Source: a virus (Duplodnaviria > Heunggongvirae > Uroviricota > Caudoviricetes). From it: a DNA stretch of 13,532 nt. The notes beneath the pieces are model-generated. The model did no database searches. It was not told the DNA's origin and saw only the letters and a program-made list of their open reading frames with translations. The position numbers were made by a program, and so were the translations under genes. Shown one piece after another: positions 9,762 through 11,390 of the stretch (positions within the stretch are counted from its first letter, which is position 1; each line of letters begins with the position of its first letter). The stretch covers positions 1 to 13,532 of the IMG/VR virus record IMGVR_UViG_2778261085_000011; one strand, written 5' to 3'.

Positions 9762-10114
9762 CTGAAGCAGGGATAATAAAAGCGTATATGACTTTATTTT
9801 TTAATGAGTTACATGAAAATAATGTTATGTAAGGCTTTTTGTTTATATATAGACCTATAACAATATTGATAGATTTACAGATGGCGACTGCATAAAAAAA
9901 CACAAAATCATAATCACTAACCGCTCGTTTTCCCCATGATGTTATGCAGGGGGTGAGATACGTGAAACTAGACTGCGAAAGCAATGCCTGGTTTATCGTC
10001 CCAGCCGTATGCGTGGAGAGTTCCTGGCTCCGTGCAGAAGGAAATGAATACGAATAAAAACAGTCAGTGCCGTGAGCTGAGGAACCACGGCATATTACTA
10101 TGCAGGTGACCATT

Positions 10115-10345
10115 ATGAACGATAAAAATTTAATAAAAATACTATCACCAACGAGGAGGAAACGGCGTAAAAAAATGGAGCAAAAGCATGATGTCGAGAC
10201 ATTCACACCATGTGTATTTGCCCTTGAGCAGTTTCTTAAAAGGCATAAGCGTATAGTCATGGGACGATATTCCTGGAAAGTAATTAGCGGCAAAGCTCCC
10301 AAAAAACAGGAACAGTCCAGTTGTAATTCTCTACATTCGCCATAA
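10115..10345 (+). CDS. Small basic hypothetical protein (76 aa), paralog of 11045-11242
   Basis: ATG at 10115 with AGGTGA 5 nt upstream. Shares F-x-PC-x-F-x-LE-x-FLK...MG...WK and a Lys/Arg-rich N-terminus with the 11045-11242 product; same-frame conservation of the two paralogs supports plus-strand coding. Confidence 0.55.
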
Positions 10346-10500
10346 CCCTTCTTGGTTACATCTGGAGTCATCGGTGCAAACATGAAAAATTTCCGACTAA
10401 ACATATATTCACGGTACACAGCCAGGAAGGTGTATATAAATTTAGGGTGAGTTTGGGTATGCTGTGTTCCAGCCATAATCGTTACCTCATTTAACGGTTT

Positions 10501-10547
10501 GGTTAGAAGCCCGGTTAGTGTTAGCGCACTGCCGGGTTTCGTCGTTT
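10501..10547 (+). repeat. 47-bp direct repeat copy 2 (hairpin plus T-tract), about 155 nt downstream of gene 10115-10345
   Basis: GGTTAGAAGCCCGGTTAGTGTTAGCGCACTGCCGGGTTTCGTCGTTT; could act as a plus-strand intrinsic terminator. Confidence 0.85.
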
Positions 10548-10562
10548 TTATGAATCGATCAT

Positions 10563-10662
10563 TGTGAGATACATAGCCATCACAATGTGAGATACACATT
10601 ATATTGTGGTGATATACATTGCAAGTGTTTTTGTATCTCGCTTTTGTGTATAGTGATATACA
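10563..10662. promoter_or_regulatory. Phased array of GTGA(G/T)ATACA motifs (4 direct, 1 inverted, about 22-bp period); candidate operator
   Basis: TGTGAGATACA at 10563-10573 and 10586-10596, GTGATATACA at 10609-10618 and 10653-10662, inverted TGTATCTC at 10632-10639. Lies immediately upstream of gene 10685-10987. Confidence 0.6.
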
Positions 10663-10684
10663 CATAACTAATTGGTGATTAACT

Positions 10685-10987
10685 ATGTCTGTATACAAAA
10701 ATGCAAAATCGCAAATGACAACGATCAGGGTTCCCCACGATGTTATGGAGGGTATGGAATCCGTAAAACTGGACGGCGAAAGCAACGCCGGATTCATAGT
10801 AACCGCCATGCGTGGTGAGATCGCCCGCCGCCAGGCAGAAGGAAGCGGAGAAAATCCCCTGGTTTCTTCGCTCGATGCACTGGCGCAGGTGGAAAAAATC
10901 GGAGTCAAAGCTGCCGAGGAGATCGGGCAACTCGTCACCGTCGCGCGTGAAGAACTCCAGCGCCGCAAGGCCAAAGAACAGGAGTAA
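10685..10987 (+). CDS. Putative ribbon-helix-helix DNA-binding protein (100 aa); candidate repressor or antitoxin-like regulator
   Basis: ATG at 10685 with GGTGA 6 nt upstream. N-terminal pattern [39 protein letters not shown] fits beta strand, helix A, turn, helix B of RHH proteins; this is inference from pattern only. Confidence 0.5.
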
Positions 10988-11044
10988 CCATCACCAGCGC
11001 CGTGGTGCGGTGAACTGTGGCGCACAGGGTTACAGGTATCTACG

Positions 11045-11242
11045 ATGACTGACAAATCATTAAAGAAATTATCTTCATCAAGGAAAAAACAACGCAAAAA
11101 CGCGGTAAGCGAACATGAACAGGAAAGATTCGCGCCATGTGCGTTTGTCCTTGAGAAGTTCCTTAAAGAGTATAGGCGCACAAAAATGGGATCACATACC
11201 TGGAAAACATCGCGGCATGGCGATGTTAAAGAGCAGGAATAG
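11045..11242 (+). CDS. Small basic hypothetical protein (65 aa), paralog of 10115-10345
   Basis: ATG at 11045, TAG at 11240-11242; [19 protein letters not shown]...[28 protein letters not shown]. Confidence 0.55.
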
Positions 11243-11390
11243 CCCACCAGCAAGCCAGTATATTCACCATAATGACCCTCAGTTAAACCTAGAGTCATTG
11301 GTGCAAAGCTGACACATTGCCCACCAGCCGCAAATGTGGCATTGTTGGTGATGCTCATGCGTTGGGGATAACGTGTAGCTTGTGTCGAAG

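What the first reader, a model, noticed from the sequence alone, without database searches (positions are those of the whole stretch)
10100..11250. Plus-strand three-gene module (basic small protein, RHH-like protein, basic paralog) behind a phased operator array, divergent from the replication operon
This is the only plus-strand cluster in the island core. It comprises two paralogous small basic proteins of unrecognised family flanking a putative ribbon-helix-helix protein. The GTGA(G/T)ATACA motif occurs five times with about 22-bp phasing directly upstream of the RHH gene, and once more (GTGAGATAC, 9953-9961) upstream of the first paralog. The placement resembles an immunity or master-regulator module, but the duplicated basic proteins are not explained by any family I can name. 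A toxin-antitoxin-like or anti-helper function is also possible.
Basis: partly seen in the sequence, partly recalled or inferred. Interest (0 to 1): 0.7.

Follow-up and report, generated by a model that had tools for sequence, protein, structure and literature searches.

The report
Repressor cassette nested inside satellite read-through frame
The plus-strand genes are two tandem copies (one decayed) of a small control cassette of a phage-satellite island: a DNA-binding repressor with its own operator array, an antisense RNA and a tiny basic protein. The whole cassette is written backwards inside a long stop-free reading frame, and it may be the 'missing' repressor of Gram-negative phage-inducible islands.

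Summary

- **The island.** The window is a Gram-negative PICI/P4-like satellite with int, alpA, C4/isrK RNAs, Icd/Ash, a helicase, SSB and PerC.
- **The middle gene (10685-10987).** It is a YlcI/YnfO-family protein, named by NCBI but uncharacterised. It has a predicted beta-alpha-alpha (ribbon-helix-helix-like) N-terminus and a long C-terminal helix.
- **The GTGAKATACA array.** There are four direct sites and one inverted site, 21-23 bp apart. They cover a conserved pair of back-to-back promoters.
- **Specificity.** In 19 or more related loci from seven genera, the repeated motif changes together with the beta-strand residues of YlcI. This is the strongest evidence, short of an experiment, that YlcI binds the array.
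- **The two 'paralogs'.** They exist because the cassette is present twice, as heterologous tandem copies. Copy 1 has a dead ylcI (two stop codons and a 129-bp deletion).
- **An antisense RNA.** Each cassette also encodes a structured plus-strand RNA related to SymR. It is antisense to the ribosome-binding site and start codon of the leftward Icd/Kil-like ORF.
- **The nested frame.** The whole cassette lies antisense inside an 805-codon stop-free frame that starts just after alpA. This resembles P4 eta, and the open frame is conserved across genera.
- **The model island.** The model PICI EcCICFT073 carries the same cassette.

All function is inferred from sequence. Nothing has been tested experimentally.

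The parts
10685..10987 (+). ylcI (copy 2, intact): a 100-aa YlcI/YnfO-family protein. It has an RHH-like N-terminal domain (beta-strand residues MTTI) and a conserved long C-terminal helix.
   Evidence: NF041551 at 71.2 bits against a cut-off of 30. phrog_6522. AF2 pLDDT 83.5 with H18-27, H34-51 and H58-99. 250 homologs across Enterobacterales. The third-position test favours the plus-strand protein.
10560..10665 (.). Operator array and back-to-back promoters. O1 is 10564-10573, O2 10587-10596, O3 10609-10618, O4 10632-10641 (inverted) and O5 10653-10662. The leftward promoter P_L has -35 TTGCAA at 10624-10619 and -10 TAATGT at 10601-10596 (or TATAAT at 10603-10598). The rightward promoter P_R has -10 TATAGT at 10649-10654.
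   Evidence: Motif statistics. Promoter hexamers sit at fixed positions in 18/19 (P_L) and 17/19 (P_R) related loci, while the operator sequence between them changes with the YlcI allele.
10467..10548 (+). SymR-like structured RNA, copy 2: two hairpins and a U-rich tail. It is antisense to the SD (GAGGT, 10488-10484) and ATG (10476-10474) of the nested leftward ORF.
   Evidence: Weak Rfam SymR hit at 35.9 bits. Ten of 21 pairs are compensatory, 95.9% of cells are paired, 0/500 shuffles reach this. There are 58 G.U cells on the plus strand and 1 on the minus strand. The model R1 scores 88.5 bits here and finds K-12 symR.
11045..11242 (+). Small basic protein P2 (65 aa; phrog_21027). It has an Arg/Lys-rich N-terminus and the conserved core F.LE.FLK..R.KMG..TWK.
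   Evidence: phrog_21027 at E 1.9e-46. 46 homologs, all Escherichia. Only 16 cluster representatives in 1.8 billion proteins. It is intact, and in the same frame as ylcI, in all 8 E. coli loci examined. There is a modest plus-strand coding signal. AF2 confidence is low, pLDDT 64.
11388..11413 (+). Intrinsic-terminator-like hairpin downstream of the ylcI-P2 unit.
   Evidence: Terminator scan.
11511..11538 (+). Second plus-strand terminator-like hairpin. It is conserved next to the start of the eta-like frame and is not a terminator when read on the minus strand.
   Evidence: Terminator scan. The block is conserved in alpA-linked and ant-linked loci.
9681..9762 (+). SymR-like structured RNA, copy 1. 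It is antisense to the SD and ATG (9684-9682) of the Ash/Icd ORF.
   Evidence: Rfam SymR 34.5 bits. R1 86.6 bits. About 96% identical in more than 500 E. coli genomes.
9763..9880 (.). Decayed control region of copy 1. It has TGTAAG-type operator remnants, the P_L -35 has changed from TGTCAA to TGAAAA, and the ylcI SD is lost.
   Evidence: Alignment with L001 and L006.
9881..10057 (+). ylcI pseudogene (copy 1, SLTA type). It has stop codons at codons 5 and 11 and a 129-bp in-frame deletion of the C-terminal domain.
   Evidence: Translation reads [19 protein letters not shown].... Alignment. Repeat D1.
10115..10345 (+). Small basic protein P1 (76 aa from ATG 10115; 81 aa from 10100). It is the diverged partner of the dead ylcI, and whether it is expressed is uncertain.
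   Evidence: 46% identical to P2. phrog_21027 at E 3.9e-15. The identical protein is found on 4 contigs.
9148..11565 (-). Eta-like stop-free frame of 805 codons. Its likely start is SD GAGG plus ATG 11550, 20 nt after the alpA stop. It runs antisense through both cassettes and through isrK/C4. Only the last ~200 codons (Ash/Icd) look like a conserved protein.
   Evidence: 0 stops, against 49 and 42 in the other minus frames. The frame is open in 16 other loci including Xenorhabdus, Photorhabdus, Serratia, Enterobacter and Cedecea, and in EcCICFT073 and L024/L025. Ash PF10554 and Icd-like NF033153 match the C-terminus only. The P4 precedent is described in PMC10111431.
9391..9589 (-). C4 antisense RNA (9391-9478) and the isrK/a1b1 element (9500-9589), inside the Ash/Icd part of the frame.
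   Evidence: Rfam: C4 76.4 bits, isrK 80 bits, c4-a1b1 39.8 bits.
11570..11776 (-). alpA (AlpA/Vis-type regulator). The eta-like frame starts immediately downstream of it.
   Evidence: Pfam Phage_AlpA at E 4.5e-8. Junction sequence.

Best explanation
The plus-strand cluster is a counter-transcribed immunity cassette of a Gram-negative PICI/P4-like satellite. It is present here twice in tandem: copy 1 has decayed and copy 2 is intact.

**Proposed mechanism**
1. YlcI is an RHH-type protein with a C-terminal oligomerising helix. It binds the five GTGAKATACA sites, which are spaced two helical turns apart.
2. These sites cover two back-to-back promoters. Binding represses the leftward early promoter (P_L), which drives the Icd/Kil-like ORF, the C4 region and the replication genes. 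It also autoregulates the rightward ylcI promoter (P_R).
3. Just left of the array, a constitutive SymR-like antisense RNA pairs with the ribosome-binding site and start codon of the first leftward ORF. This blocks its translation and exposes the transcript to Rho-dependent termination.
4. C4 RNA adds a further layer downstream.
5. Induction bypasses all layers. AlpA-driven transcription from upstream is translated from a start codon just after alpA, through a frame kept free of stop codons across the whole cassette, as with P4 eta. The transcript therefore stays ribosome-covered and reaches the replication genes.
6. The small basic protein is a co-transcribed accessory protein restricted to Escherichia. 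Its role is unknown; my guess is that it binds nucleic acid or modulates YlcI.

**Shown from sequence and comparison:** the family assignments, the operator/protein co-variation, the conserved promoter hexamers, the RNA structure and its strand, and the conserved open frame.

**Inferred:** DNA binding, repression, RNA expression, translation of the frame, and the involvement of Rho.
For: **YlcI identity and fold**
- NF041551 scores 71 bits against a cut-off of 30.
- AF2 gives a strand-helix-helix topology plus a helix at 58-99.
- hhalign against Arc aligns in the correct register, E 0.0056.
- 41 of 55 homologs weakly hit the RHH family PSK_trans_fac.

**Operator array and specificity**
- The array is far above chance.
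- Each beta-strand allele has its own repeated motif: MTTI with GTGAGATACA, LTTV with GTGTTTCA, SLTA with TGTAAG, LKNI with GTGTATTTA, MKNI with GTGTATATACA, QISI with TGAATCACA, TVAA with GTGTTNAACAC, and ALKA with GTGGCCCAC.
- L025 carries the same backbone, but protein allele and operators have been swapped together.

**Promoters**
- TTGACN-17-TAnnnT lies on the minus strand at a fixed distance from the ylcI ATG in 18/19 loci. A TATAAT-like -10 lies at -36 in 17/19 loci.

**Plus-strand genes are real**
- Third-position changes that spare the plus-strand protein are accepted about 6x (ylcI) and about 3.5x (small ORF) more often per opportunity than changes that spare the minus frame.

**Antisense RNA**
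- Covariation and the strand test support a plus-strand structured RNA.
- It has reciprocal similarity to SymR.

**Open frame**
- It has 0 stops against 42-49 in the other minus frames. P is about 5e-12 for the 336 codons outside any plus ORF.
- It is conserved in 17 or more loci and 6 genera.
- It stays open even where ylcI copy 1 has decayed.
- A start codon lies within -5 to +60 nt of the stop of the upstream gene in the E. coli loci examined.
- The minus-strand RNA is C>G across the cassette.

**Literature**
- The P4 eta mechanism is summarised in PMC10111431.
Against: - No experiment or transcript data was available here. The promoters, RNA ends and DNA binding are all predictions.
- The generic promoter scan did not call P_L or P_R in this window. 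The window's P_L is a weak variant: TTGCAA with -10 TAATGT at 17 nt, or TATAAT at 15 nt.
- The -10 element proposed for the antisense RNA overlaps conserved codons of the opposite ORF, so its conservation is ambiguous.
- Three of 12 loci from other genera (L014, L017, L019) have only a short open frame.
- In this window the intact array is about 900 bp from the Ash/C4/Icd genes, so its control of them depends on read-through of the decayed copy.
- AlpA has been shown to be the activator in EcCICFT073. A repressor was not needed to explain those data.
Confidence: 0.58

Rival explanations
1. Type II toxin-antitoxin (addiction) module. YlcI is an RHH antitoxin and autorepressor, and the small basic protein is its toxin. 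The operator array serves only conditional autoregulation.
Against: The small protein matches no toxin, PADLOC or PDB family. It is restricted to Escherichia, whereas YlcI occurs alone in Xenorhabdus, Photorhabdus, Serratia, Enterobacter and Erwinia. In this window an intact small ORF sits beside a dead ylcI. The small-protein alleles do not co-vary with YlcI alleles. The operators cover a conserved leftward promoter, not only the ylcI promoter.
Confidence: 0.08
2. The minus-strand 805-codon ORF is the only real gene: a large Bro/Ash/Icd-network protein. The plus-strand ORFs would then be shadow ORFs, and the repeats would be coding repeats or protein-independent DNA features.
For: The minus frame is open over 2.4 kb and this is conserved. 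PGAP annotates 'ash family' and 'Icd-like' pseudogenes across the region in relatives. All plus ORFs share third codon positions with the minus frame.
Against: Only the last ~200 residues match any family. Discordant third-position changes favour the plus-strand proteins. The minus-frame peptide changes completely wherever the operator allele changes. YlcI has a curated family model, conserved starts and SDs, and a confident fold. The plus-strand ylcI copy 1 shows classic pseudogene decay while the minus frame merely stays open.
Confidence: 0.05
3. YlcI is not the island's repressor. It acts on the helper phage or the host, in interference or anti-helper roles or as a recombination-directionality cofactor, and the array is only its autoregulatory site. 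Island control would rest entirely on AlpA and the RNAs.
For: Published work explains EcCICFT073 induction by AlpA activation alone (PMC6092414). The C-terminal domain is more conserved than the DNA-binding part, as expected for a domain that meets a common partner. No other copy of the operator exists in the window, so any trans targets are unknown.
Against: Operator and leftward-promoter geometry is conserved in 18/19 loci. Allele-specific operators are exchanged together with the protein. This is the pattern of a cis-acting immunity determinant.
Confidence: 0.15

Closest known systems
Phage P4 immunity region (vis/alpA - eta/kil nested ORFs - CI RNA; Forti et al. 1999, as summarised in PMC10111431)
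   Same: An ORF starts right after the AlpA/Vis homolog. Shorter ORFs with their own SD are nested in the same frame. An immunity RNA (C4/CI type) and its targets lie inside the ORF. The logic is that translation of the long frame makes upstream-promoter transcripts insensitive to immunity.
   Different: As I recall from Forti et al. 1999 (not checked here), P4 eta is about 197 codons and, to my knowledge, has no counter-oriented genes inside it. Here the frame is 375-805 codons and contains, on its antisense strand, a repressor gene with operators and promoters, an antisense-RNA gene and a small protein gene. Most of the frame is not a conserved protein.
Phage P22 immI (Mnt and Arc RHH repressors, divergent Pant/Pmnt, sar antisense RNA, ant). 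This comparison rests on my own knowledge.
   Same: An RHH-type repressor with an N-terminal DNA-binding domain and a C-terminal helical oligomerisation domain. Its operators overlap divergent promoters. A small antisense RNA targets the ribosome-binding site of the controlled gene. Some relatives carry AntA/AntB antirepressor genes next door.
   Different: There is no significant sequence similarity to Mnt (E 0.14) and only marginal similarity to Arc (E 0.0056). The array has five phased sites. The cassette is nested in an antisense open frame. The controlled genes are Icd-like and replication genes.
SymE/SymR type I toxin-antitoxin of E. coli K-12 (Rfam RF01809)
   Same: An RNA of about 80 nt with two hairpins and a terminator is encoded antisense to the SD and start codon of a potentially toxic ORF, and begins a few nucleotides inside it. 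Similarity is reciprocal: the Rfam SymR model hits both window copies (36 and 34.5 bits). A model built only from island copies finds the annotated K-12 symR and nothing else in 20 kb (30 bits, E 1e-5).
   Different: Scores are below Rfam's gathering threshold of 61 bits. The target ORF is Icd/Ash-like, not SymE. In the position upstream of the target ORF, the islands carry a YlcI operator array.
Phage P1/P7 immI (c4 RNA - icd - ant)
   Same: C4 RNA, a1/b1-type targets and an Icd-like ORF are present in the same operon.
   Different: In P1 the operon is controlled by the C1 repressor. Here an RHH cassette and a second antisense RNA lie upstream. Several relatives have the YlcI cassette but no C4 at all.
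Stl/Rpr master repressors of Gram-positive PICIs (SaPIs)
   Same: The gene is oriented opposite to the replication operon, sits next to the int/regulatory end, and is proposed to keep the island silent (PMC6092414).
   Different: The protein family is unrelated. There is no evidence that a helper protein inactivates YlcI. In these islands induction is known to go through AlpA.

Membership tests
YlcI/YnfO family (NCBIfam NF041551) | Score at or above the curated cut-off (30 bits) on the 42-residue N-terminal domain model | tested here: met
   71.2 bits over residues 8-49, full model length. RefSeq annotates the orthologs in relatives as YlcI/YnfO.
Ribbon-helix-helix (Arc/MetJ/CopG) superfamily | Beta-alpha-alpha topology of the DNA-binding domain | tested here: met
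   The AF2 model has an extended segment at about residues 10-16, then H18-27 and H34-51, with pLDDT 84-91 in that region. This is a monomer model, so the intermolecular sheet cannot be seen.
Ribbon-helix-helix (Arc/MetJ/CopG) superfamily | Significant sequence or structure match to a curated RHH family or a solved RHH structure | tested here: inconclusive
Ribbon-helix-helix (Arc/MetJ/CopG) superfamily | Beta-strand residues determine operator specificity | tested here: met
   Eight beta-strand alleles each have a different repeated motif at the same positions upstream. This is comparative evidence, not biochemical.
P4 eta/kil-type translated leader | The long ORF starts adjacent to the alpA/vis homolog (translational coupling) | tested here: met
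   SD GAGG plus ATG 11550 lie 20 nt after the alpA TAA. Similar or overlapping starts occur in the 8 relatives examined and in EcCICFT073.
P4 eta/kil-type translated leader | A shorter ORF is nested in the same frame, and the immunity RNA and its targets lie inside the ORF | tested here: met
   ATG 10476 and ATG 9684 both have SDs and are in frame. C4, isrK and a1b1 lie inside the frame.
P4 eta/kil-type translated leader | Translation of the ORF prevents Rho-dependent termination | not testable with these tools
   Only indirect evidence is available: the frame is kept stop-free in 17 or more loci, and the minus-strand RNA is C>G.
SymR antisense RNA (Rfam RF01809) | Score at or above the gathering threshold (61 bits) | tested here: not met
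   35.9 and 34.5 bits. The reciprocal model does hit K-12 symR at 30.1 bits, E 1e-5. I therefore call it 'SymR-like', not a member.
SymR antisense RNA (Rfam RF01809) | Cis-antisense geometry over the SD and AUG of the opposite ORF, with the structured RNA on the antisense strand | tested here: met
   The covariation and G.U strand tests are.
Type II toxin-antitoxin pair | The two genes co-occur obligatorily and the toxin family is recognisable | tested here: not met
   YlcI occurs without the small ORF in 10 loci of other genera. There is no toxin, PADLOC or PDB match.
Gram-negative PICI / P4-like satellite | int and alpA are followed by a co-oriented replication module, with PerC-type accessory genes and integration next to a tRNA or core gene | tested here: met
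   int, AlpA, DUF4222, an AAA_25 helicase, SSB and two PerC genes are present. Relatives sit at tRNA-Pro/yejM. The same cassette is in EcCICFT073.

The most novel reading that the evidence does not exclude
YlcI is the long-sought protein repressor of a large group of Gram-negative PICI/P4-like satellites. Its whole control cassette (repressor gene, operators, two promoters, a SymR-like antisense RNA and a small basic protein) has evolved embedded on the antisense strand of a 'spacer ORF' of 400-800 codons. The only selected property of that ORF is that it has no stop codon. This lets AlpA-driven, ribosome-coupled transcription run over and override every layer of immunity. It would be a case where selection maintains an open reading frame for its translatability rather than for its product, across an entire counter-oriented gene cassette and across genera.
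Probability: 0.35. Interest if true: 0.8.

Novelty: new variant of a known kind. Interest (0 to 1): 0.68.

Why it matters
- **An open question becomes testable.** For Gram-negative PICIs the literature says that a global repressor has not been identified and that only the activator AlpA is known (PMC6092414). This cassette is a concrete candidate. It is present in the experimental model EcCICFT073 and in about a quarter of complete E. coli genomes (1230 of 5426).
- **Allele specificity.** The allele-specific operators suggest heteroimmunity groups among satellites.
- **An unusual gene arrangement.** The nesting of a complete regulatory cassette inside a frame that is kept open, but is not a conserved protein, is a clean natural example of selection on translatability. 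It extends the P4 eta paradigm.
- **A link to SymE/SymR.** The similarity suggests that the E. coli SymE/SymR leader is related to satellite control regions.

Tried and rejected
- **PDB profile search.** It gave only a weak helix-hairpin-helix-like match of the C-terminal region to Hef (E 0.0076). I did not pursue it, because AF2 models that region as one continuous helix.
- **Mnt comparison.** Not significant.
- **Phage collection.** Neither DNA nor tblastn searches with ylcI or the module found anything, so context in cultured phages could not be used.
- **Literature on YlcI/YnfO/DUF3950.** Only incidental mentions were found. The first P4 search terms were swamped by unrelated papers.
- **Arginine-rich RNA-binding idea.** I considered that the small basic protein is an arginine-rich peptide recognising the conserved hairpin. 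I rejected a specific pairing, because near-identical small proteins accompany different hairpin variants (window P2 against L004) and the hairpin is conserved in genera that lack the protein.
- **The hairpin as terminator of the previous cassette.** Rejected, because single-copy loci have the hairpin upstream of ylcI with nothing to terminate.
- **PADLOC.** No defence-system match for any of the proteins.
- **Generic promoter scan.** It did not call the promoters. They were found only by comparative alignment.
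Full report
**What the window is.** On the minus strand the window carries:
- an integrase (12291-13532);
- an 80-aa ORF;
- alpA (11570-11776; Pfam Phage_AlpA);
- a DUF4222 gene;
- an AAA_25/RepA-type helicase (6807-8213);
- SSB;
- a ProQ/FinO protein;
- two PerC genes;
- a SocA/Panacea gene.

Rfam finds a C4 antisense RNA (9391-9478) and an isrK/a1b1 element (9500-9589) on the minus strand. Relatives in E. 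coli sit next to tRNA-Pro/yejM and are annotated int, HTH (AlpA), YlcI/YnfO, Icd-like, Ash, DUF4222, and primase or RepA. This is the organisation of Gram-negative PICIs and P4-like satellites (PMC6092414, PMC10111431).

**Check of the observation.** The three plus-strand ORFs exist. GTGAKATACA occurs exactly at 10564, 10587, 10609 and 10653. It occurs once more, inverted and with one mismatch, at 10632-10641. The spacings are 23, 22, 23 and 21 bp. The window holds seven matches at one mismatch or fewer against 1.1 expected, and none of 200 shuffles reached seven. The two small ORFs are homologous: 72% nucleotide identity over 93 nt and 46% at the protein level.

The repeat analysis also shows that the similarity extends well beyond the small ORFs. 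Region 9714-10043 matches 10500-10844, and 10134-10397 matches 11061-11324. The region therefore holds two tandem, diverged copies of one cassette.

Copy 1 contains a ylcI remnant (9881-10057) that translates as [19 protein letters not shown]... It has two premature stops and a 129-bp in-frame deletion of the C-terminal domain. Its Shine-Dalgarno sequence and the adjacent -35 element are also mutated.

The same tandem arrangement occurs on four public contigs (L024 is 96% identical). In L025 the second copy has been replaced by another ylcI allele together with its operators.

**The middle protein.** ORF 10685-10987 passes the NCBIfam YlcI/YnfO model (71.2 bits, cut-off 30) and matches phrog_6522. 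It has 250 homologs across Enterobacterales. UniRef names some of them 'Arc-like DNA binding domain-containing' or 'CopG family'.

Links to curated RHH families are only marginal. PSK_trans_fac scores below threshold although it is hit by 41 of 55 homologs. hhalign gives E 0.0056 against Arc, in the correct register, and E 0.14 against Mnt. I found no paper describing a function for YlcI/YnfO.

**Evidence that YlcI binds the array.** I compared the 260-300 nt upstream of ylcI in:
- 8 E. coli loci;
- 10 loci from Enterobacter, Xenorhabdus, Photorhabdus, Erwinia, Serratia and a genome deposited as Martelella;
- EcCICFT073;
- L025.

The scaffold is constant, but the repeated motif differs and tracks the residues of the predicted beta-strand:

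| Beta-strand residues | Repeated motif |
|---|---|
| MTTI | GTGAGATACA |
| LTTV / LFTV | GTGTTTCA |
| SLTA | TGTAAG |
| LKNI / VKNV | GTGTATTTA |
| MKNI | GTGTATATACA |
| QISI | TGAATCACA |
| TVAA | GTGTTNAACAC |
| ALKA | GTGGCCCAC |

Identical strand residues in different genera go with the same motif. Examples are L008 with Xenorhabdus, and L001 with Enterobacter soli. This is the pattern expected if the strand reads the operator.

**The array is a two-way promoter region.** On the minus strand, TTGACN-17-TAnnnT sits with its -35 element 61-62 nt upstream of the ylcI ATG in 18 of 19 loci. On the plus strand, a TATAAT-like -10 element lies at -36 in 17 of 19 loci.

In the window, each operator sits at a key position:

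| Operator | Position relative to the promoters |
|---|---|
| O3 | P_L spacer, next to the -35 |
| O2 | P_L -10 and +1 |
| O1 | just downstream of the P_L start |
| O4 | P_R spacer |
| O5 | P_R start |

In relatives without C4/isrK (L003-L007), this leftward promoter is the only evident promoter directly upstream of the Icd-like and replication genes. The generic promoter scan did not call these sites, so they remain comparative predictions.

**A structured antisense RNA.** Immediately left of each array lies an 82-nt element (9681-9762 and 10467-10548). It is about 96% conserved in more than 500 E. coli genomes. An alignment of 20 copies supports two hairpins:
- 95.9% of cells are paired.
- 10 of 21 pairs show compensatory changes.
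- 0 of 500 shuffles reach the observed score.
- Structures slid by 1-3 columns reach only 34-48% pairing.

The structure belongs to the plus strand. There are 58 G.U cells on the plus strand and 1 on the minus strand. Folding energies are -34 to -40 kcal/mol on the plus strand and about -20 on the minus strand. The second hairpin is followed by a U-rich tail.

The RNA is complementary to the Shine-Dalgarno sequence and ATG of the first leftward ORF: GAGGT and ATG 10476 for copy 2, and ATG 9684 for copy 1. It begins a few nucleotides inside that ORF.

Rfam's SymR model hits both copies below threshold (36 and 34.5 bits against a gathering score of 61). A covariance model built only from the island copies finds exactly the annotated symR of K-12, and nothing else in 20 kb (30 bits, E 1e-5). 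I therefore call it SymR-like, not a member of the family. A TAnnnT hexamer lies 7 nt upstream of the modelled 5' end. It overlaps codons of the opposite ORF, so its conservation is ambiguous.

**The frame that contains everything.** The minus strand is open from 11607 to 9148, and the ORF from GTG 11565 is 805 codons. The other two minus frames have 49 and 42 stops over the same stretch. For the 336 codons that lie outside any plus ORF and outside the Ash/Icd match, the chance of no stop is about 5e-12.

The same phase is open in several sets of loci:
- from the 3' end of alpA (or of an AntA/AntB gene) to the Icd stop in L001-L007;
- nearly so in L008;
- in 9 of 12 loci from other genera (285-531 codons);
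- in EcCICFT073 (433 codons);
- in L024 and L025 (805 and 799 codons).

Only the last ~200 residues match families: Ash PF10554, Icd-like NF033153 and phrog_29966. A start codon lies within -5 to +60 nt of the upstream gene's stop in the E. coli loci examined. In this window it is SD GAGG plus ATG 11550, 20 nt after the alpA TAA.

All four plus ORFs share their third codon positions with this frame. At those shared positions, changes that are silent for YlcI but alter the minus-frame peptide number 671 for 32 opportunities. The reverse class numbers 176 for 50 opportunities. For the small ORF the figures are 35 for 81 and 17 for 136. These are pairwise counts and are not independent, but the direction is clear.

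Selection therefore acts on the plus-strand proteins, while the minus frame is merely kept open. It has stayed open even through the decayed ylcI copy. This matches what is described for P4. [quoted passage not shown] 1999). The minus-strand RNA is C>G across the cassette, unlike the flanking genes. This is weakly consistent with a Rho substrate.

**The small basic proteins.** P2 (65 aa) and P1 (76 aa from ATG 10115) belong to phrog_21027. The family is tiny: 46 homologs, all Escherichia, and 16 representatives at 50% identity in 1.8 billion proteins.

In all eight E. coli loci, and in EcCICFT073, an intact copy follows ylcI by 43-58 nt in the same frame. The loci from other genera have none. 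More distant members keep the core F.LE.FLK..R.KMG..TWK behind unrelated N-termini.

The AlphaFold model has low confidence: two helices, pLDDT 64. There is no Pfam, NCBIfam, PADLOC or PDB match. Its alleles do not track YlcI alleles or hairpin variants. I take it to be a real accessory gene of unknown role. P1 sits behind a dead promoter and may be a relic.

**Most likely mechanism.** See the best explanation. In short, YlcI on the array represses P_L and P_R. The SymR-like RNA blocks translation of the first leftward ORF. C4 acts further downstream. AlpA-driven transcription, translated through the stop-free frame, overrides all three layers.

In this window only copy 2 is intact. Its leftward transcripts, and those from alpA, must therefore cross the decayed copy 1 in frame to reach Ash/C4/Icd and the replication genes. 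This explains why the frame has stayed open across the duplication.

**Rivals.** A type II toxin-antitoxin pair is unlikely (see rival explanations). 'Shadow ORFs of a large minus-strand protein' is contradicted by the third-position tests and by the lack of conservation of the minus-frame peptide. A role for YlcI outside the island cannot be excluded.

**Comparison and novelty.** The parts resemble known systems:
- P4 vis-eta/kil-CI;
- P1 c4-icd-ant;
- P22 immI, with its RHH repressors, divergent promoters and sar antisense RNA (this comparison is from my own knowledge);
- SymE/SymR.

New here, as far as the searched literature shows, are three things. The first is the assignment of the YlcI family as an allele-specific operator-binding regulator of these satellites. 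The second is the SymR-like RNA in this position. The third is the nesting of a whole counter-oriented cassette within a conserved, non-protein-like open frame.

The cassette is present in the model island EcCICFT073, for which a repressor was reported as unclear. The hypothesis is therefore directly testable.

Noticed in passing
window 1660-4852 (minus strand): There is a second tandem heterologous duplication in the accessory end. It comprises two PerC genes (1660-2031 and 4565-4852) and two paralogous ~98-aa ORFs (about 2519-2860 and 3763-4059; both read ...ENYAR..AEVMRRD.IELNGVD...YRRRVQMY...KKPERLRR). This island therefore duplicates modules repeatedly.
   Followed up: partly
window about 1463-1579: A short tandem repeat translates as GWLAGWLAGWLAGWL on the minus strand and QPASQPASQPASQPAS on the plus strand. 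It is a 12-bp unit repeated four or more times, in an apparently non-coding stretch.
   Followed up: no
window 11309-11354: A ~45-bp block (contains GCCGCAAATGTGGC, a small hairpin) is 95-98% conserved in L003-L006 although the flanking sequence is mosaic. It lies between the small ORF and the terminators. Its function is unknown; it may be a recombination junction or a binding site.
   Followed up: no
L002 2761-3440 (E. coli A19): This relative carries two tandem copies of the C4 / isrK-a1b1 immunity RNA unit. Tandem duplication of control modules in this zone is therefore not unique to the window.
   Followed up: no
L003-L007 (E. coli relatives): Five relatives have the YlcI cassette and an Icd-like gene but no C4 or isrK RNA. 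Three of them (L003-L005) have an AntA/AntB antirepressor gene next to the open frame, between the cassette and the integrase end of the island. The YlcI cassette and the C4 system are therefore independent, combinable layers.
   Followed up: partly
window 10850-10930 (YlcI residues 55-85): The conserved C-terminal region ([25 protein letters not shown]72 and G73 are invariant) gives a weak helix-hairpin-helix-like match to the Hef (HhH)2 domain (E 0.0076). AlphaFold models it as one continuous helix. The conflict is unresolved.
   Followed up: partly
window 2072-2365 (plus strand): Another probable plus-strand gene (97 aa or more, no Pfam match) has a homolog downstream of ylcI in the Erwinia locus L014 (4078-4443). 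The ylcI cluster is therefore not the only plus-strand coding region in the window.
   Followed up: no
L021 9500-9912 (E. coli K-12 symE/symR): The island RNA model hits K-12 symR. This suggests that the symE leader and these satellite control regions share ancestry.
   Followed up: partly
window 1-513 (minus strand): A SocA/Panacea-domain protein (PF13274, E 2e-18) lies at the left edge of the window. It may be part of a toxin-antitoxin or defence cargo of the island.
   Followed up: no
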